Under the pieces are notes generated by a model, which made no database searches, had not been told where the DNA came from, and was given only the letters and a program-made list of their open reading frames with translations. A stretch of DNA of 19,997 nt, taken from UHGV virus genome UHGV-0061455. One strand, written 5' to 3'. The translations under genes were made by a program, and so were the position numbers. The stretch is from a virus. Positions 13,527-19,363 of the stretch are shown piece by piece. Numbering within the stretch: the stretch's first letter is position 1; the number at the start of each line of letters is the position of its first letter.

Positions 13527-13768
13527 ACTTCGTAGAACACAACCTAAAGATTTCAGATATAAAGTCTCAGAACTCGGCTATCTATAGGCTTGACCAGATG
13601 CATGGGGACAGTACTAATCCTAACGTAAGTACTGTATTCGTAACTAATGATGATATGCTGGAGCTAGTTGAATTATGGCTGAAGAACTGTGGCTACGGCG
13701 AGCGAGACAGTTGGGTGTTGGACAGACTGAAAGGTTTAGGTGTTGTGGTAGAACAGCAGCAGCTGTAA
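13523..13768 (+). CDS. Hypothetical small protein
   Basis: 81 aa from ATG 13523 (GTGGAATGA overlap with upstream stop). The 3' end overlaps the predicted primase start by about 94 nt, so one of the two boundaries is uncertain. Confidence 0.4.
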   Translation: MNFVEHNLKISDIKSQNSAIYRLDQMHGDSTNPNVSTVFVTNDDMLELVELWLKNCGYGERDSWVLDRLKGLGVVVEQQQL

Positions 13769-14463
13769 TAAGAAACGAGCCAGATAAATGGACATGCTCT
13801 TGCTTTAGATGTAAAGGTTATCACGTGGAGCGTAAGCAGTACGCTCAATTAGTAGTACCTGAAGTACTGGGGCGTGAGTTGCCCGCCCCTCAGGACCTGA
13901 AGCGCCTGCCGGAACTGGATGCAGGGCTTCAGCAGTTCCTTTACGGATTCTTAATATCAAAAGGTATCTGGCCTGATATGGCTGGAGATGTTTATTACTC
14001 AGAACAATACAAGAGGTTAGTGTGGAAATTATCAACGGGCAGTTACATAGCGAGAGCATTGCACGAGTACCAGTTTCCGAAGTGGGTGATGCTGGGGAAG
14101 TCGTTACAATGGGCGCAGCTTGGGAATACTGGAACGATAACAGTACTGACAGAGGATTATCTCTCGGCGCTGAAGGTTCAGCAGGTCTCGGAGAAGTATT
14201 CTTCACAGACTGTTACGGCAATAGCATTACTGGGGACTCGCTTAGCTCTTGGGCTTAAGGCTCAGCTGATACGAGAAGGGAAGCCTATAGTGTGCATGTT
14301 GGACGGAGACAAGGCAGGTTACGCTGGAACTGTTCAAATTCACAAACAGTTACGTCCATTTTTAAGGGTAGGCGACTTCCACATTGATGGGCTAGACCCC
14401 AAGGACATGAAGTGTAGTCAAATAATAGAAGGTATAGCAGATGAATTGGGAAGAGTATTATAA
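13675..14463 (+). CDS. DNA primase (zinc-binding region plus TOPRIM domain; T7 gp4 primase-like, separate from the helicase)
   Basis: 262 aa. Cys cluster RFRCCGRTAAAVIRNEPDKWTCSCFRC near the N-terminus; VCMLDGDKAGYAGT resembles the TOPRIM acidic motif (T7 MFDMDEAGRKA). Start is uncertain because of the upstream overlap. Confidence 0.65.
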   Translation: MAEELWLRRARQLGVGQTERFRCCGRTAAAVIRNEPDKWTCSCFRCKGYHVERKQYAQLVVPEVLGRELPAPQDLKRLPELDAGLQQFLYGFLISKGIWPDMAGDVYYSEQYKRLVWKLSTGSYIARALHEYQFPKWVMLGKSLQWAQLGNTGTITVLTEDYLSALKVQQVSEKYSSQTVTAIALLGTRLALGLKAQLIREGKPIVCMLDGDKAGYAGTVQIHKQLRPFLRVGDFHIDGLDPKDMKCSQIIEGIADELGRVL

Positions 14464-14586: not shown

Positions 14587-15861
14587 ATGGATTTTGTAAT
14601 AGCTAGGGCTATGTGTGAACGTAAGGTGCATGACCGCTTACGGGACAGTATCCCTAAGTCACTGCTTGCGCCGGATACGGTAGCACTGCTAGGATGGATT
14701 GAACTGTATTATGCAACCTACCCTGACTCTAACGAAGTACGCTTTGATGTAATGGATACGCTCCTTAATATGCGTGGGGCGCATTTACAGAAGGAGCAGA
14801 TGGATATCCTTAAGCATATGCTTAAGACCGTTCAGGGCGTTCCTGATGAGGCGGTAGCTGGTACAGTGCGTACGCTGAACGAGCTGGCCTACTCGGGTGA
14901 GATGGCTGCACTGGTCAGTAAGTATCAGGCTGGGGAAGAGATTGACTTTGTACAGGAAGCTAAAGCGCTTGAGCGCAAGTACTCAGGCGTAGCAGCAGCC
15001 AATGATTCACTACTTAAGTGGGAAGATGGGGGTGTAGACGATATTCTCGCGGCTACTGATGAGTCTGGTGGTCTTAAGCTTACTGTGTTCAGTGAGTTGG
15101 CTAGAAACATTCGCGGCTTACGGGGTGGTGATTGTGTTGCTGTTGCTGCCCCTGTTGATGCTGGTAAAACTTCTCTCCTAGCTGCTATAGTAGTTAACCT
15201 AGCGGAACAGATGCATGAGCAGAAGGAGATTTACGCAGAGCGTCCTATCCTGTGGTTGGTGAACGAGTCATTGGCCAAGCGCACTGTACCGCGCATCTAT
15301 CAAGCAGCTACTGGACTTACCTTGCAGCAGATTGTTGAGCAGCATAAAGAAGGTAAGTTTGCTGATAAGTACCTGAAGAAGGTTGGGACTTGGGATAAGA
15401 TTCGCGTTAAGGATGCGCACAGTATGAGCCTAGGTCAAATCTCTACGCTATTGGAAGAGATGCGTCCGGCTGTGCTGGTGATTGACATGGTCGCTAATAT
15501 AAAGGGAGGTAATGCCGAGTCAGAGTATCAGGCATTGGAACAGAAGTGGCAGCAGCTGCGTATGCTGGGATGTGAATATGATTGCGTTATCTTAGGTACG
15601 ATTCAGTTATCTGTTGAAGGTTACGATTGCATGTACCCGCCGCTGACAGCATTGAAAGGAAGTAAGATAGGTGTTCAAGGTGCTTTGGACTTATGCATCA
15701 TGATGGGACGTATGAATGTTAACGATCGTCCTGACATGGCTAACGTACGCGGGATTAGTACACCTAAGAATAAGTTAGGTAAGTCTGGTAGTACTGCATA
15801 TGTGCAGTTCCAAGTGGAGTTTAACGGCGGTACGTGCCAATTCAGTGAAGGTCTAGCGTAA
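14587..15861 (+). CDS. Replicative DNA helicase (DnaB/gp4B-like)
   Basis: 424 aa; AAGGGG RBS. Walker A-like AAPVDAGKTS, Walker B-like hydrophobic stretch ending in D (AVLVIDMVA), and position directly after the primase. Confidence 0.8.
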   Translation: MDFVIARAMCERKVHDRLRDSIPKSLLAPDTVALLGWIELYYATYPDSNEVRFDVMDTLLNMRGAHLQKEQMDILKHMLKTVQGVPDEAVAGTVRTLNELAYSGEMAALVSKYQAGEEIDFVQEAKALERKYSGVAAANDSLLKWEDGGVDDILAATDESGGLKLTVFSELARNIRGLRGGDCVAVAAPVDAGKTSLLAAIVVNLAEQMHEQKEIYAERPILWLVNESLAKRTVPRIYQAATGLTLQQIVEQHKEGKFADKYLKKVGTWDKIRVKDAHSMSLGQISTLLEEMRPAVLVIDMVANIKGGNAESEYQALEQKWQQLRMLGCEYDCVILGTIQLSVEGYDCMYPPLTALKGSKIGVQGALDLCIMMGRMNVNDRPDMANVRGISTPKNKLGKSGSTAYVQFQVEFNGGTCQFSEGLA

Positions 15862-15916: not shown

Positions 15917-16381
15917 ATGAGCACTTGCATAGATCATGGTAAGTGTAAAAGCTTATCACCTGAAGGGTATTTATTAGTTACACGTCCTGAGTATTTCAGC
16001 AGAGGTTGTAAGACTAGAAGCATTGCTAAGCATAGGCTAGTACTTCTTACAAAGCTGGGTATAAACTGGTGGGATGAAGAGGCTAAGGATTTAGTAGCGC
16101 TCCACACTTGCGATAATCCTAGATGTATTAATCCCGAGCATCTGGTAGCAGGAACCCGTGGGGACAATAACAGAGATAGGGCAGAAAGAGGGAGAAGTGC
16201 TAAGAAGGTTCCTAGTAAGTGGAAGCTTACCCCTACTGATTGCAAAGCTATAATTAACTCTTATAACAAGAAAGATAGGGAGAATAACAAAAGCGCCTTA
16301 TCAGCACGTTTCAAAGTAGACCGTAAGATAATCACTCAAGTTTTAGAAGGAACATATAGTGGCCTCGATTTTAATCTTTGA
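15917..16381 (+). CDS. HNH homing endonuclease
   Basis: 154 aa; GGAGG RBS. HTCDNPRCINPEHLVAGTRGDNNRD matches the HNH_3-type motif. Gene is visibly more A+T-rich than the flanking helicase and polymerase genes. Confidence 0.8.
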   Translation: MSTCIDHGKCKSLSPEGYLLVTRPEYFSRGCKTRSIAKHRLVLLTKLGINWWDEEAKDLVALHTCDNPRCINPEHLVAGTRGDNNRDRAERGRSAKKVPSKWKLTPTDCKAIINSYNKKDRENNKSALSARFKVDRKIITQVLEGTYSGLDFNL

Positions 16382-17504
16382 TATTGAAACTCAAAACGTG
16401 CCTTACTTTGGAGGGGTAGCTACTCCGTACTGCCCTGAGAACTACATCGTAGAATCAGGGTTCAGGATTGATAGAACTAATCCAGATGGTACAGTAACGT
16501 GCAGTGATGTAGGCAGCGTACGTTATGAATCAAGAGAAGAGTTCTTGCAGGCAGACCCTAAGCAGTGGTTACCTATTCAGGAAGATACATGGTTAATCGT
16601 GGCCCATAACGCTGCGTATGAGATTAGCTGGGCACTGACGTTTGCTAGGGAAGAGTTTGAGGCATTCCTGAAAAGAGGTGGACGTGTATTTGATACAATG
16701 CAGGGGCAATACATCGCCTCTGACTTCCAAGACCTTTACCCGTCACTGGATGAGACGGCCCCCAAGTATGGTGGCAGTCACAAGGTTGATGGTGTTAAGC
16801 TGCTGTGGCAGCAGGGAGTATTAACAGCAGATATTGACCCAGTACTACTGCATGAGTACCTAACAGGGCCGGAAGGAGACATCGTCAATACTGCACTGTG
16901 CTTCTACGGGCAATGTGCATTGTTCGCTGAGCGTGGGCAGATGCCTATGGTCTGGGAAAGGATGGATAGTGTAGTAGCCCTAGCCTACTGTGAGTTTAAT
17001 GGTGTGTACGTAGACATGCCTACAGCCAGAGCTAACCAGAAGGAGCAGGAGGACGCTATCGCAGTACTGAAGCAGACTCTGCAAGGCTTCTTGCCGGAAC
17101 TACCTGAAGGCTTTGAGTTCAACTGGAACAGTGGATACCACATGTCCGCACTGGTGTATGGCGGTATGGTTAAGTACAAGTGCAAGGTCCCGTATGACCC
17201 GCCGAAGTATGTGAAGAAGGAAGTGCAGGATGGGGTATATAAGTCAGGCCGTAACAAGGGCATGCCTAAGTACATTAAAGTAGACACAGACGAGCAGGCT
17301 ATGAAGTGGGGCGAGCGTTTGTATAAGTTCGAAGGACTTGTATGTATTAAGGACCTGCCGGCAGTACTACAAGAGAAGTATGCGGAGCGAGGAGAGTTCC
17401 GAGGTGCTCAGACATTAGCAGACGGTACAGCTGTATTCAGTACAGGTACGGATGCTATGAAAGAACTGGCTAACTATTTTATTGGGATTGAAGACGATGA
17501 GTAA
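16359..17504 (+). CDS. DNA polymerase (family A), N-terminal fragment with 3'-5' exonuclease domain
   Basis: 381 aa from GTG 16359 (GAAGGA RBS 7 nt upstream), overlapping the HNH gene end. Exo I motif ILIFDIETQ and Exo II VAHNAAYEISWAL align with T7 gp5 (IVSDIEANA, VFHNGHKYDVPAL). ORF stops where the methyltransferase gene begins. Confidence 0.8.
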   Translation: MASILIFDIETQNVPYFGGVATPYCPENYIVESGFRIDRTNPDGTVTCSDVGSVRYESREEFLQADPKQWLPIQEDTWLIVAHNAAYEISWALTFAREEFEAFLKRGGRVFDTMQGQYIASDFQDLYPSLDETAPKYGGSHKVDGVKLLWQQGVLTADIDPVLLHEYLTGPEGDIVNTALCFYGQCALFAERGQMPMVWERMDSVVALAYCEFNGVYVDMPTARANQKEQEDAIAVLKQTLQGFLPELPEGFEFNWNSGYHMSALVYGGMVKYKCKVPYDPPKYVKKEVQDGVYKSGRNKGMPKYIKVDTDEQAMKWGERLYKFEGLVCIKDLPAVLQEKYAERGEFRGAQTLADGTAVFSTGTDAMKELANYFIGIEDDE

Positions 17505-18204
17505 TTTTATAAACATTATGCACGGTGACTGTCTGGAGTTGATGAAGGAAATTCCAGCTAAAAGTGTAGATATGGTACTTTGCGACTTACCTTATGGGAC
17601 TACTCAATGTAAATGGGATGTGATTATAGATTTTAAAATGTTATGGGAAAACTACGGTAGGGTAGTTAAGGATACGGGCGCTATAGTCCTAACGGCGGCG
17701 CAGCCGTTCACAAGTACGCTGGTAGTAAGTAATATTAAGAACTTCAAATATCAATGGGTTTGGAAGAAATCAAGACCTACAGGACATCTTAATGCTAAGA
17801 AGCAACCGTTACGGAACACTGAAGACATTCTCGTCTTCTATAAGTCGCAGTGTACGTATAATCCTCAAGGTACACGAGAAACAGACGTCATGGTGTCACG
17901 TACAAACAGGGGCAATTACGGGGAATGTTCAAAAACCACACGGCAGACGGTAACCGGTTACCCTACTACGATTCTGGAATTTGCATCTGAAGTAGGGGAA
18001 CACCCAACACAAAAGCCAGTCGCACTTATGGAGTATCTAATTCGTACATATACAAACGAAGGTGATACTGTTCTAGACAATTGCATGGGCAGTGGTACTA
18101 CGGGGGTAGCAGCTAAGAATACACTCCGTAATTTTATAGGTATCGAAAAGGATGCTACATACTACGATATAGCATTCAATCGCATTCATAATTCAAACGT
18201 GTAA
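17497..18204 (+). CDS. DNA methyltransferase (N6-adenine/N4-cytosine, beta-class)
   Basis: 235 aa from ATG 17497 (overlaps the Pol-N stop). N-terminus MSNFINIMHGDCLELMKEIPAKSVDMVLCDLPYG carries a DLPY variant of motif IV (DPPY). HPTQKP and DNCMGSGTTGVAAK...NFIGIEKD (motif I) are family signatures. Visibly A+T-rich versus neighbours. Confidence 0.85.
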   Translation: MSNFINIMHGDCLELMKEIPAKSVDMVLCDLPYGTTQCKWDVIIDFKMLWENYGRVVKDTGAIVLTAAQPFTSTLVVSNIKNFKYQWVWKKSRPTGHLNAKKQPLRNTEDILVFYKSQCTYNPQGTRETDVMVSRTNRGNYGECSKTTRQTVTGYPTTILEFASEVGEHPTQKPVALMEYLIRTYTNEGDTVLDNCMGSGTTGVAAKNTLRNFIGIEKDATYYDIAFNRIHNSNV

Positions 18205-18211
18205 GGTATGT

Positions 18212-19363
18212 ATGACTACTCAAGCGTCTTCATTCTTTAAAGCATACAACGAACTAACCCTGCGCCAGAAGGACTTAGGCTTCTATGAGGTTAAGGACTA
18301 CAACAAGGATGGTAGCCTGCGTAAGACTACGGGGATGCTTCCTTATGTAATACCTCAGAAGGAAGACGGTAGTGGCATCATTCATCACCGCCTGAATCAC
18401 TGTTCAACTACAACCGGGAGGCTGTCAGCGTCTAACCCGAATATGCAGCAGCTGCCGCGTGAGTCTAAGGTTAAGCAGATTCTTCGCAGTCGCTATGGTG
18501 AGCAGGGCATGATTGCACAGTGCGACTACTCAGCTATGGAAGTTGTAATGGGCTGTGTAATTACCGGTGATAAGAAGCTCCTGTCCCTGCTTGAAGATGG
18601 TACAGACATGCACTGCTACCGCTTAGCATTCCAAGAGGGTATGCCATATGAAGAAGTCTACGAGCTTTGCCATAACCCGGATGCACTGAACCATAAAGAA
18701 TGGAAGAAGAAACGAACAGCAATCAAAACGTTCAGCTTCGCAGCGCAGTACGGAGCTTCCGCTAAAGGATTGGCGTTCGCCTCTGGTGCCAGCCTGAAGG
18801 ATGCTGAGAAGTTCTTAGCTAACGAAGAAGCCCTGTTCCCTGAGTCTATTAAGTATCGCGATGTAATCGCAGCAGAAGTAAACCGCACTGCATTACTGGA
18901 ACCTATCCGTCGTGAGCAGTCAGATGACGGTAGCTGGCGTATCTACCGTGAGGGATACTTCACTGCACCTTGCGGTACTCGCTACCGCTTCCGTCAGAAA
19001 CCTGTGTGGCGTGAAGGGAAGCAGGTCATGGACTTCAAGCCTACAGAGATGGCGAACTATCCGTTTCAGGGCTCAGGTTCCCTGCTTATGCTGATTGCGA
19101 TGGGTATGATTCTGCGTGCAGGGTTAGCGGATAACTGGATGGACGGTAAGTGGTGCATCCTTGCCACTGTGCATGATGCCGTCTATGCAGATTGTGCAGA
19201 CGAAGAGACAGCTAATAAGGTAGGGCAACTTATCAAGCGCTGTATGGAAGGGGCACGCGACCGTATGCTAGCACTGTGGCCTGAGTTTGGTATCCTTAAA
19301 GATGTAAAGTTCCCAGCAGAAGCCGGGCTTGGTAAATCCTTCAAGGAAGAGTACACGATTTAA
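18212..19363 (+). CDS. DNA polymerase (family A), C-terminal fragment with polymerase domain
   Basis: 383 aa. TTTGRLSASNPNMQQLP (O-helix-preceding motif), DYSAMEV (motif A), RTAIKTFSFAAQYGAS (motif B) and VHDAV (motif C) match Pol I/T7 gp5. Confidence 0.85.
   Translation: MTTQASSFFKAYNELTLRQKDLGFYEVKDYNKDGSLRKTTGMLPYVIPQKEDGSGIIHHRLNHCSTTTGRLSASNPNMQQLPRESKVKQILRSRYGEQGMIAQCDYSAMEVVMGCVITGDKKLLSLLEDGTDMHCYRLAFQEGMPYEEVYELCHNPDALNHKEWKKKRTAIKTFSFAAQYGASAKGLAFASGASLKDAEKFLANEEALFPESIKYRDVIAAEVNRTALLEPIRREQSDDGSWRIYREGYFTAPCGTRYRFRQKPVWREGKQVMDFKPTEMANYPFQGSGSLLMLIAMGMILRAGLADNWMDGKWCILATVHDAVYADCADEETANKVGQLIKRCMEGARDRMLALWPEFGILKDVKFPAEAGLGKSFKEEYTI

What the first reader, a model, noticed from the sequence alone, without database searches (positions are those of the whole stretch)
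16359..19363. Family A DNA polymerase split into two ORFs by an inserted DNA methyltransferase gene
The exonuclease half (16359-17504) and polymerase half (18212-19363) are separate ORFs in different frames, with a complete methyltransferase gene (17497-18204) between them. The insert is in its own frame, so it is not an intein, and no intron signature is evident. Methyltransferase and nearby HNH genes are visibly A+T-rich compared with the flanking replication genes, suggesting horizontal acquisition. Homing endonucleases commonly split phage polymerase genes; a free-standing methyltransferase doing so is less usual. The polymerase must either work as two subunits or be inactive.
Basis: partly seen in the sequence, partly recalled or inferred. 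Interest (0 to 1): 0.65.

Follow-up and report, generated by a model that had tools for sequence, protein, structure and literature searches.

The report
Two-piece phage polymerase with cargo slot
This phage's DNA polymerase is encoded as two separate genes in a whole group of related E. coli phages, and the methyltransferase gene between the halves here is an optional passenger in that pre-existing gap, not the thing shown to have broken the gene.

Summary
Three same-strand ORFs in three frames encode the exonuclease/thumb half of a family A polymerase (16359-17504), an intact PF01555 DNA methyltransferase (17497-18204) and the palm/fingers half (18212-19363). Independent assemblies reproduce the arrangement.

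All but one (54) of the 55 closest N-half protein clusters end at the same codon with the same 10-residue tail. I read 18 distinct loci of this clade, including the window. In 13 the two halves simply overlap by 8 nt (ATGAGTAA type) with nothing between, and these include the isolated phages PAS7 and P64441. The other inserts are two unrelated 65-aa ORFs and a second, mosaic methyltransferase allele. More distant relatives have a fused polymerase of about 800 aa. Three lineages carry a free-standing HNH homing endonuclease at the same position.

Both halves are under strong purifying selection (dN/dS 0.02-0.10). The break lies in a helix-loop-helix of the thumb. One relative has re-fused the gene by a 7-nt deletion.

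My reading is a stable two-subunit polymerase of the "genes-in-pieces" kind, whose junction serves as a slot for accessory genes. Here the slot holds a horizontally exchanged orphan methyltransferase. This is a new variant of a known kind and of moderate interest.

The parts
16359..17504 (+). PolA N-half (381 aa). It holds the 3'-5' exonuclease domain (Exo I FDIET 16377-16391, Exo II HNAAYE 16605-16622, Exo III YLTGPEGD 16857-16880) and the first part of the thumb, including a long beta-hairpin.
   Evidence: phrog_9556 at 2.5e-106 and phrog_17 at 8e-41. Motif alignment with fused KpV48, OWB, phiKMV and phiKDA1 polymerases. AlphaFold model of the fused relative P0038, whose best structural matches are T7 gp5, DpoZ and Bst Pol I. 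dN/dS 0.045-0.089.
17472..17504 (+). Clade-specific C-terminal tail of the N-half, NYFIGIEDDE plus stop. It has no counterpart in fused polymerases and probably extends the thumb helix as an assembly element.
   Evidence: The tail pattern [N/D/H]YF[I/M]x[I/V/M]Exxx is conserved in 54 of 55 clusters. Alignment shows a 12-residue insertion relative to fused relatives. In the fused relative's model the equivalent DYFIS continues helix 364-376 and is followed by loop 377-381.
17497..17504 (+). ATGAGTAA stop/start overlap. This is the ancestral junction at which, in insert-free relatives, the C-half starts. Here the methyltransferase has taken over that start codon.
   Evidence: Junction table of 13 loci, plus the fused L067 sequence. 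In every empty site the C-half begins at this ATG. In every occupied site the cargo begins at it, and a near-duplicate ATGAsTAnn restarts the C-half.
17497..18204 (+). Orphan beta-class DNA methyltransferase (235 aa), probably N6-adenine. Motif IV DLPY is at 17584-17595, motif I MGSGTTG at 18085-18105 and NFIGIE at 18130-18147. This is horizontally exchanged cargo.
   Evidence: PF01555 at 2e-29 over the full-length profile and phrog_67 at 2e-75. Best PDB sequence hits are CcrM at 3.6e-20, then DpnA-like, MboIIA and RsrI. Closest phage homologues are in unrelated phages: Felixounavirus SEP1 83% aa, and OzMSK (which has phage T1-like neighbouring genes) 74%. The gene is mosaic: nt 200-570 are 83-94% identical to SEP1 and nt 570-708 are 88-90% identical to the L196 allele. 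GC is 41.1%.
18202..18211 (+). Methyltransferase stop TAA plus a 7-nt spacer (TAAGGTATGT) with an AAGG Shine-Dalgarno-like element just upstream of the C-half start.
   Evidence: Read directly from the sequence. No promoter-like or terminator-like site flanks the insert, and the number of sites in the region is no higher than in shuffled sequence.
18212..19363 (+). PolA C-half (383 aa). It holds the last thumb helix, the palm and the fingers. Motif 2 is at 18407-18457, motif A DYSAMEV at 18524-18544, motif B RTAIKTFSFAAQYG at 18713-18754 and motif C VHDA at 19169-19180.
   Evidence: PF00476 at 4.5e-31, profile positions 82-380 of 381. Aligned to Taq residues 556-826. Motifs conserved relative to fused relatives. 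dN/dS 0.020-0.100.

Best explanation
The window comes from a Cepavirus-like podophage (Slopekvirinae, Autographiviridae). In this group the replicative family A DNA polymerase is natively encoded as two genes.

The gene is cut in the loop between the last two thumb helices. The N-half carries the exonuclease and most of the thumb. The C-half carries the last thumb helix, the palm and the fingers, with all catalytic motifs. The two polypeptides are inferred to assemble non-covalently into one enzyme. The clade-specific tail (xYFIGxExxx) and the new N-terminus (M-x-x-x-A-S-x-F-F) probably help by extending the two helices of a hairpin.

In most relatives the genes overlap by 8 nt (ATGAGTAA), so the C-half is translationally coupled to the N-half. 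This junction behaves as a slot for small accessory genes. A cargo gene takes over the ATG of the overlap, and the C-half start is regenerated as a near-duplicate just downstream.

In this window the cargo is an intact orphan beta-class methyltransferase, probably N6-adenine. It sits inside the replication operon with no signals of its own. It is inferred to methylate phage DNA during replication and so protect it from host restriction. Its A+T-rich, mosaic sequence shows that it is exchanged among unrelated phages.

The original break was most likely made by a free-standing HNH homing endonuclease gene. Such genes occupy the same position in sister lineages. It would later have been lost, leaving the polymerase in pieces.

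Shown: gene structure, clade-wide conservation of the break, cargo variability, purifying selection, position of the break in the fold, and the mosaic nature of the methyltransferase. Inferred: heterodimer assembly, translational coupling, the anti-restriction role, and the homing endonuclease origin.
For: Clade-wide split:
- 54 of 55 clusters with at least 70% identity to the N-half end at the same residue with the same tail.
- Empty junctions with an 8-nt overlap occur in PAS7, P64441, L008, L061, L071-L074 and L197-L201.

Outgroups are fused: KpV48, OWB, phiKMV, phiKDA1, Buco and about 50 IMG/VR loci.

Cargo variability:
- Methyltransferase in the window and in L196.
- Two unrelated 65-aa ORFs in L003 and L075.
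- Near-duplicate ATGAsTA repeats on both sides of each cargo.

Homing endonuclease at the same position: L068, L069 and L070 carry a 153-155 aa HNH_3 gene overlapping both halves. No intron was detected there.

Function retained:
- dN/dS 0.02-0.10 for both halves at dS 0.8-1.8.
- All exonuclease and polymerase motifs are intact.
- PAS7 is a plaque-forming isolate.

Structure: the model of the natural fused variant has helix 364-376, loop 377-381 and helix 382-400 at the junction, with pLDDT about 70-80. The fold matches T7 gp5.

Re-fusion: P0038/L067 is nested inside the split clade and differs by a 7-nt deletion.

Methyltransferase as foreign cargo: GC 41% against 48-50%; closest relatives in a Felixounavirus and in OzMSK; mosaic identity profile.

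Experimental precedent for split enzymes that work: Aeh1 NrdA (PMC3045599), and gp43A/gp43B of Aeromonas phage 25 (reviewed in PMC2988022).
Against: - No protein-level evidence exists for assembly or activity of the two halves in this clade.
- The order of events is not proven. The window and L196 methyltransferases share a 3' end that is as similar (85-88%) as the adjacent C-half. A methyltransferase cassette could therefore be old at this site, with many losses.
- The N-half tail contains FIGIE, which matches the methyltransferase motif NFIGIE. That might be a relic of an ancient methyltransferase insertion.
- No sequence remnant of a homing endonuclease gene was found in the scar, so the homing endonuclease origin rests on position alone.
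- The methyltransferase target site and activity are unknown.
- The fused variant rests on a single Logan contig.
Confidence: 0.8

Rival explanations
1. A methyltransferase cassette was the original insertion that split the polymerase in the ancestor of the clade, which is the first reader's view pushed back in time. Empty junctions and the 65-aa ORFs would then be later losses or replacements through recombination between the flanking ATGAGTA repeats.
For: - Methyltransferases sit at the junction in two different sub-clades.
- Their 3' 140 nt are 88-90% identical, similar to the flanking C-half.
- The conserved N-half tail NYFIGIEDDE resembles the methyltransferase motif RNFIGIEKD. It was also the top direct repeat in the region, 19 of 24 nt.
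- Deletion between 8-9 nt flanking repeats is easy.
Against: - 13 of 18 loci are empty and are spread over the whole tree, so this model needs many independent losses.
- Methyltransferase genes have no known site-specific insertion activity. A true mobile element, an HNH homing endonuclease gene, occupies the same position in sister lineages.
- I found no simple rearrangement that places a methyltransferase 3' motif upstream of the methyltransferase start.
- The FIGIE match could be chance. My estimate is about 1e-3 at the protein level, made post hoc, and about 0.15 at the nucleotide level.
Confidence: 0.15
2. The split arose by a simple small indel or frameshift in a lineage-specific thumb-loop insertion, with no mobile element involved. 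Cargo genes were captured afterwards.
For: - The fused variant P0038/L067 shows that the linker can exist in one ORF and differs from split alleles by only 7 nt.
- No homing endonuclease remnant is detectable.
Against: - P0038 is nested deep within the split clade, about 90% identical to split P0026 and P0033. It is therefore derived, not ancestral.
- The break coincides, within a codon or two, with an HNH insertion site in three other lineages.
- The C-half start (A/G)TGAGT has the same frame relation to the upstream ORF in both kinds of split.
Confidence: 0.2
3. A single full-length polymerase is still made, by RNA splicing, protein splicing, ribosomal frameshifting or bypassing, so the two ORFs are only apparent.
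For: A group I intron with an HNH ORF does interrupt the same gene elsewhere, at SASNP|NMQQLP, in the relative L003. Splicing elements therefore do occur in this gene family.
Against: - No Rfam family matches 17300-18400 at E<=1.
- Empty junctions have no room for an intron because the ORFs overlap by 8 nt.
- The tails are 10 aa, with no intein blocks.
- 707 nt holding an intact, conserved methyltransferase ORF cannot be bypassed or frameshifted across.
- Four different cargo sequences would each have to splice.
Confidence: 0.02
4. Assembly or sequencing artefact: the low-coverage (4x) metagenome contig falsely joins a methyltransferase into a continuous polymerase gene.
For: The window is a 4x-coverage metagenome contig, NODE_1251.
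Against: - The identical arrangement appears in independently produced contigs L065 (NCBI GCA_900525415.1) and L066 (Logan ERR414380).
- A divergent allele of the same arrangement appears in L196.
- The split itself is present in finished isolate genomes.
Confidence: 0.01

Closest known systems
Split family B DNA polymerase gp43A/gp43B of Aeromonas phages 25 and 44RR (Petrov, Ratnayaka and Karam 2010, as reviewed in PMC2988022)
   Same: - A replicative phage DNA polymerase is encoded as two adjacent genes.
- The content of the gap differs between relatives: an untranslated spacer in 44RR and a seg homing endonuclease gene in phage 25.
- The review raises the same question of whether the inserted gene invaded a gene that was already split.
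- The two polypeptides co-purify and are active.
   Different: - That polymerase is family B, not family A, and the break position and host group differ.
- Here the gap is usually zero (overlapping genes).
- Here the cargo includes a DNA methyltransferase and small ORFs rather than a homing endonuclease gene.
- No biochemistry exists for this clade.
Genes-in-pieces NrdA of Aeromonas phage Aeh1, split by the free-standing endonuclease gene mobE (Friedrich et al. 2007, PMC1851037; Crona et al. 2011, PMC3045599)
   Same: - An essential enzyme gene is fragmented at a conserved site by a free-standing homing endonuclease gene.
- Short new tails at the break, created by the insertion, are needed for activity and holoenzyme assembly.
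- This matches the HNH-bearing lineages L068-L070 and offers a model for the conserved 10-aa tail here.
   Different: - In the Cepavirus-like clade the homing endonuclease gene is absent and the split persists without it.
- The enzyme is a polymerase.
- The role of the tails is untested here.
Split DNA polymerases noted in marine phage genomes: OM43 phages MEP401/402, with a small unknown ORF between the halves (PMC10580990), and an uncultured cyanophage lineage (bioRxiv 10.1101/325100)
   Same: A phage DNA polymerase is annotated as two genes. In MEP401/402 a small ORF of unknown function lies between them.
   Different: - Those are unrelated phage lineages, and the break positions were not compared here.
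- No methyltransferase cargo, cargo polymorphism or re-fusion is reported in the passages I read.
Orphan phage DNA methyltransferases of the beta class (PF01555; solved relatives CcrM, DpnA-like M1.HpyAVI, M.MboIIA, M.RsrI)
   Same: - Motif order: catalytic D-x-P-Y near the N-terminus and the SAM-binding G-x-G near the C-terminus.
- Small size.
- No adjacent restriction gene.
- Wide, patchy distribution among unrelated phages.
   Different: - The location, between the two halves of a polymerase gene and sharing the polymerase's stop/start overlap, is not described in any paper my searches returned (five of the six literature searches bore on this).
- The target sequence is unknown.
- It is unrelated to phage T1 Dam.

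Membership tests
Family A (Pol I/T7-type) DNA polymerase | Polymerase motifs A (DYSxxE), B (RxxxKxxxFxxxYG) and C (HD), and a PF00476 match | tested here: met
   PF00476 at 4.5e-31, above the gathering score. The motifs are at 18524-18544, 18713-18754 and 19169-19180 and are conserved relative to phiKMV, KpV48, OWB and phiKDA1. The C-half aligns to Taq residues 556-826.
Family A (Pol I/T7-type) DNA polymerase | N-terminal 3'-5' exonuclease domain with Exo I, II and III motifs, and a T7-like overall fold | tested here: met
   Exo I FDIET, Exo II HNAAYE and Exo III Y..GD are conserved. The AlphaFold model of the fused relative has pLDDT 83, and its best PDB matches are T7 gp5 (2ajq, 1t7p), DpoZ and Bst. 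Pfam itself gave no exonuclease-domain hit for the N-half.
Genes-in-pieces (essential gene fragmented by a free-standing mobile gene, product reassembled from separate polypeptides) | One ancestral ORF is now two ORFs at a site that is contiguous in relatives | tested here: met
   Fused polymerases of about 800 aa occur in the outgroups. The split is at DAMxxLA| in the clade.
Genes-in-pieces (essential gene fragmented by a free-standing mobile gene, product reassembled from separate polypeptides) | A homing endonuclease gene lies at the break | tested here: not met
   No homing endonuclease gene lies between the halves in the window or in any of the 18 Cepavirus-like loci read, and no remnant is detectable. 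The feature is met only in sister lineages L068-L070.
Genes-in-pieces (essential gene fragmented by a free-standing mobile gene, product reassembled from separate polypeptides) | The separate polypeptides assemble into an active enzyme | not testable with these tools
   Indirect evidence only: dN/dS 0.02-0.10 on both halves, intact motifs and viable isolates.
Intron- or intein-interrupted gene | A self-splicing RNA structure or intein blocks at the interruption | tested here: not met
   No Rfam hit at E<=1 in 17300-18400. The insert is in its own frame with its own start and stop. The tails are 10 aa. Empty sites overlap by 8 nt.
Beta-class N6-adenine/N4-cytosine DNA methyltransferase (PF01555) | Full-length PF01555 match, with the catalytic (D/S)-x-P-(Y/F) motif N-terminal to the SAM-binding G-x-G motif | tested here: met
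   PF01555 at 2e-29, profile positions 1-220 of 221. DLPY is at residues 30-33 and MGSGTTG at residues 197-203. PDB hits are CcrM, DpnA-like, MboIIA and RsrI. NCBIfam hits are all below their curated cut-offs, so there is no equivalog assignment.
Beta-class N6-adenine/N4-cytosine DNA methyltransferase (PF01555) | Demonstrated methylation activity and a defined target sequence | not testable with these tools
   The Asp in motif IV and the nearest solved relatives suggest N6-adenine. The target-recognition segment is swapped between alleles. The gene is unrelated to T1 Dam.
Restriction-modification system | A cognate restriction endonuclease gene adjacent to the methyltransferase | tested here: not met
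   The neighbours are the two polymerase halves. The nearby HNH (15917-16381) matches homing-type families PF05551/PF13392 and phrog_6254. That position between the helicase and polymerase genes holds an HNH gene in some methyltransferase-less relatives and other small ORFs in others.

The most novel reading that the evidence does not exclude
The junction of the split polymerase is not just a tolerated scar. It is a selected expression slot. Accessory genes captured there are translationally coupled to the replicase subunits and made in step with them. The methyltransferase may even act at the replisome, methylating nascent phage DNA as it is synthesised. The conserved YFIGxE tail would then be either a mobile-element-derived assembly domain or a relic of an ancient methyltransferase fusion.
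Probability: 0.12. Interest if true: 0.7.

Novelty: new variant of a known kind. Interest (0 to 1): 0.45.

Why it matters
This clade gives a natural series of states at one site in a family A replicase: fused, split and empty, split with four kinds of cargo, split with a homing endonuclease gene, and re-fused.

That series could be used in three ways:
- To ask how a Pol I/T7-type polymerase tolerates a break in the thumb, and whether short tails drive assembly. This bears on engineering split polymerases.
- To follow how a selfish-element scar becomes a stable gene boundary.
- To study how phages recruit anti-restriction genes into core operons.

There is also a practical point for annotation. 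The two polymerase genes in Cepavirus-like genomes are not pseudogenes, and a methyltransferase lying between them is not evidence of gene disruption.

Tried and rejected
119 had no polymerase or methyltransferase and were chance hits.
I modelled the natural fused relative P0038 instead.
- Sequence search of PDB with the N-half gave no hit. With a fused relative the alignment did not reach the junction. Naming the two helices H2 and I therefore rests on the AlphaFold secondary structure plus my own knowledge of Klenow/Taq nomenclature.
- I tested whether the methyltransferase is a T1-Dam-type GATC enzyme, because a 74% homologue sits in OzMSK, a phage with T1-like neighbouring genes. T1 Dam turned out to be unrelated, so no target can be inferred.
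- I looked for a homing endonuclease remnant in the scar and in the 65-aa ORFs. Nothing was significant.
- I looked for a promoter or terminator flanking the insert. None exceeded chance.
- Group I intron searches at the HNH-occupied thumb site in L067-L070, and at the interruption in PS3 that is annotated as a join, found nothing at the gathering threshold. L069 also gave nothing at E<=1.
- I could not find a rearrangement that explains the similarity between the FIGIE tail and the methyltransferase motif. It is left unexplained.

Full report
**1. The observation**

The window is a metagenome contig (ENA ERZ1310330, NODE_1251, 4x coverage). On the + strand it carries, in order:
- primase, 13675-14463
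- DnaB-type helicase, 14587-15861
- an HNH endonuclease gene, 15917-16381
- a 381-aa ORF, 16359-17504
- a 235-aa ORF, 17497-18204
- a 383-aa ORF, 18212-19363

The first of the three focal ORFs matches the phage family phrog_9556 'DNA polymerase' at 2.5e-106. The middle one matches Pfam PF01555 (N6/N4 DNA methylase) at 2e-29 over the whole profile. The last matches PF00476 (family A DNA polymerase) at 4.5e-31, but only from profile position 82 onward. The three ORFs are in three different frames.

Exonuclease motifs I-III lie in the first ORF. Polymerase motifs A, B and C lie in the third. All are intact when aligned with the single-chain polymerases of phiKMV, KpV48, OWB and phiKDA1.

The methyltransferase (GC 41.1%, GC3 39%) and the upstream HNH gene (40.6%, GC3 35%) are clearly more A+T-rich than the polymerase halves (48.3% and 49.7%, GC3 51-53%).

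The same gene order recurs in an NCBI metagenome contig and in a Logan assembly (L065, L066). It also recurs, with a divergent methyltransferase allele, in another phage contig (L196). This rules out an assembly error.

**2. The split is older and wider than the methyltransferase**

The closest annotated genomes are Escherichia phages vB_EcoP_PAS7 and vB_EcoP_P64441. PAS7 is the type of the genus Cepavirus in Slopekvirinae. Both already list two adjacent 'DNA-directed DNA polymerase' genes with no methyltransferase.

Their N-half ends ...ELANYFIGMEENE* and their C-half begins MSNKASEFFKAY.... The stop and start overlap in ATGAGTAA.

A search of 5.8 billion proteins returned 55 clusters at 70-100% identity to the N-half. 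All but one (54) end at this same residue with the same 10-residue tail, pattern [N/D/H]-Y-F-[I/M]-x-[I/V/M]-E-x-x-x.

I read 18 distinct loci of this clade, counting the window once. The junction states were:
- 13 loci with the 8-nt overlap and nothing between: L001, L002, L008, L061, L071-L074, L197-L201.
- 2 loci with a methyltransferase: the window and L196.
- 1 locus, L003, with a 65-aa ORF.
- 1 locus, L075, with a different, unrelated 65-aa ORF.
- 1 locus, L067, fused.

In every occupied site the cargo gene starts at the ATG of the overlap. A near-copy of that ATG context (ATGACTACT, ATGAGTATC, ATGACTAAG or ATGAGTAAC) restarts the C-half directly after the cargo.

**3. Outgroups**

Polymerases at 65% identity or less to the N-half are single ORFs of about 800 aa that read ...DAMEALA-RQG-FEFCKLVNEL... 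through the position of the break. These include Drulisvirus, Maculvirus, Koutsourovirus phiKDA1, Bucovirus, phiKMV and about 50 IMG/VR contigs. The split clade has 12 extra residues there.

Three other lineages (L068, L069, L070; N-halves 53-66% identical) are cut at the same position. There the cutting element is a free-standing HNH_3 endonuclease gene of 153-155 aa that overlaps both halves. No intron signature was found.

Two of these lineages have N-halves only 59-66% identical to the window's, yet they share an identical right-hand flank, VSLAQFFNSVVELTALEKDVNTYYLK. This is what co-conversion during homing would produce.

The C-half start in these lineages, (G/A)TGAGT, has the same sequence and the same frame offset relative to the upstream ORF as in the Cepavirus-like clade.

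This makes a homing endonuclease invasion followed by loss of the endonuclease gene the most economical origin of the break. However, I found no recognisable remnant of such a gene in the scar, so this step is inferred.

**4. Is the two-piece enzyme functional?**

Pairwise dN/dS between the window and seven relatives is 0.045-0.089 for the N-half and 0.020-0.100 for the C-half, with dS of 0.8-1.8. Both pieces have therefore been kept under strong purifying selection since long after the split. PAS7 is a plaque-forming lytic isolate.

An AlphaFold model of the natural fused variant P0038 (mean pLDDT 83) places the junction in a helix-loop-helix:
- helix 364-376, TDAMKELADYFIS
- loop 377-381, MGKDD
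- helix 382-400, HASGFFKAYNELTLRQKDL

After this the chain enters the palm and motif 2. The model's best structural matches are T7 gp5, DpoZ and Bst Pol I.

From my own knowledge of Klenow and Taq, the local pattern S-T-S-x-x-x-x-E-x-L-A followed by ...Y-x-E-L-x-x-L-K corresponds to thumb helices H2 and I. The cut would then be in the thumb, on a surface loop far from the active site. The sequence search did not confirm this residue by residue.

The hydrophobic Y-F-I of the tail and the F-F of the C-half N-terminus extend the two helices. By analogy with the insertion-derived tails of split NrdA in phage Aeh1 (PMC3045599), they may help hold the pieces together. This is inferred.

P0038/L067 is nested inside the split clade, about 90% identical to split P0026 and P0033. 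It differs at the junction by a 7-nt deletion that removes both the stop and the start. It is therefore a secondary re-fusion, which shows the loop tolerates either state. It rests on a single contig.

**5. The methyltransferase**

It has the beta-class layout, with D-L-P-Y at residues 30-33 and the G-S-G SAM loop at residues 197-203. Its nearest solved relatives are N6-adenine enzymes: CcrM at 3.6e-20, a DpnA-like enzyme, M.MboIIA and M.RsrI. All NCBIfam hits fall below their curated cut-offs. No restriction gene is adjacent.

Its nearest phage homologues are in unrelated phages:
- Felixounavirus SEP1/SP4, 83% aa identity; the gene is frameshifted there.
- OzMSK/Msk, 74%; OzMSK has neighbouring genes annotated as similar to phage T1.
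- Xanthomonas phages, 73%.

The gene is a mosaic. Nucleotides 200-570 are 83-94% identical to SEP1. The last 140 nt are 88-90% identical to the L196 allele. The central, presumably target-recognising segment is only about 35% identical to L196.

Along the whole locus, the methyltransferase 3' end is about as similar between the window and L196 as the C-half is. The cassette therefore has some history at this site and has exchanged its middle with a foreign allele.

No promoter-like or terminator-like site brackets it. It shares the N-half's stop/start overlap and ends 7 nt before the C-half ATG, next to an AAGG element. It is probably translated as part of the replication operon.

Its role is inferred to be methylation of phage DNA that protects against host restriction. 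The target is unknown. A lead to T1 Dam (GATC) failed because the two proteins are unrelated.

**6. Rivals**

- A methyltransferase cassette may have founded the split. The two methyltransferase-bearing sub-clades, the shared 3' end and the FIGIE-containing tail speak for it. The many empty junctions, the lack of any insertion activity in methyltransferases and the homing endonuclease genes at the same site elsewhere speak against it. I give it about 0.15.
- A plain frameshift with no mobile element gets about 0.2.
- Splicing or recoding that gives one polypeptide is effectively excluded.
- An assembly error is excluded.

**7. Comparison with known cases**

The nearest precedent is the family B polymerase of Aeromonas phages 25 and 44RR. 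It is split into gp43A and gp43B, with either an untranslated spacer or a seg endonuclease gene in the gap. The pieces co-purify and are active. The same doubt was raised there about whether the inserted gene arrived after the split (PMC2988022, citing Petrov et al. 2010).

Aeh1 NrdA is the worked example of a 'genes-in-pieces' enzyme with functional tails (PMC3045599).

Split DNA polymerases, one with a small unknown ORF between the halves, have been noted in OM43 phages and in a cyanophage lineage (PMC10580990; bioRxiv 10.1101/325100).

The PAS7 paper does not mention the polymerase. None of my literature searches returned a description of a methyltransferase between polymerase halves.

The case is therefore a new variant of a known kind. 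It is a family A polymerase in pieces that persists without a homing endonuclease gene, with a polymorphic cargo slot at the break.

**8. Verdict**

| Item | Verdict |
|---|---|
| Observation | confirmed |
| Polymerase natively split, methyltransferase a passenger | about 0.8 |
| Homing endonuclease origin of the break | about 0.5 |
| Interest | 0.45 |

The interest score reflects a tidy and useful natural series that does not overturn expectations.

Noticed in passing
window 17472-17504 versus 18130-18154: The conserved N-half tail NYFIGIEDDE shares FIGIE, plus the flanking N and D, with the methyltransferase motif RNFIGIEKD. It was the top direct repeat in the region (19 of 24 nt). The tail is also present in relatives that lack the methyltransferase. 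It could be a relic of an older methyltransferase cassette, a helix-packing motif, or chance. My chance estimate is about 1e-3 at the protein level, made post hoc, and about 0.15 at the nucleotide level.
   Followed up: partly
L003 3326-4012; L007 (Providencia phage PS3); L010, L067 and L068 around C-half residue 177: The polymerase gene of this phage family is interrupted at two further conserved sites. One is motif 2, SASNP|NMQQLP, where L003 has a group I intron (RF00028, 51 bits) carrying an HNH ORF and PS3 has an annotated join. The other is motif B, TFSFA|AQYG, where HNH genes sit. Together with the thumb-loop site, that makes three recurrent targets for mobile elements in one gene.
   Followed up: partly
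window 15917-16381: An A+T-rich HNH endonuclease gene (PF05551/PF13392, phrog_6254) overlaps the polymerase N-half start by 23 nt. The helicase-polymerase gap it occupies varies among relatives. PAS7, P64441 and L197 have an HNH gene, L071 has a DUF3850 gene, and L072 and L075 have only small ORFs.
   Followed up: partly
L067 (Logan SRR10873863), junction at about 1185-1220: A relative nested within the split clade has the two halves re-joined in one ORF (...ELADYFISMGKDDHASGFFKAY...) through a 7-nt deletion that removes the stop/start overlap. It is seen in a single contig only.
   Followed up: yes
L003 2918-3115 and L075 4639-4836: Two unrelated 65-aa ORFs with no PHROG match occupy the same junction slot in other members of the clade. 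Their function is unknown.
   Followed up: partly
N-half residues of about 269-324 (window about 17163-17330) and the homologous region in PAS7-type proteins: The model shows a long two-stranded beta-hairpin in the thumb. N-half lengths of 378-416 aa differ by insertions in this region. PAS7-type proteins, for example, carry about 23 extra residues.
   Followed up: no
L202 (Salmonella phage SEP1) 2471-3173: The closest phage homologue of the methyltransferase is frameshifted into two annotated CDS in three Felixounavirus genomes. It may be a pseudogene or a sequencing error there.
   Followed up: no
L062 (Enterobacter phage phiKDA1) 12548-13228: A related Slopekvirinae phage with a fused polymerase carries a DNA methyltransferase at a different place, just upstream of the RNA polymerase gene. 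Methyltransferase cargo is therefore not tied to the polymerase junction across the subfamily. I did not check whether it is homologous to the window's methyltransferase.
   Followed up: no
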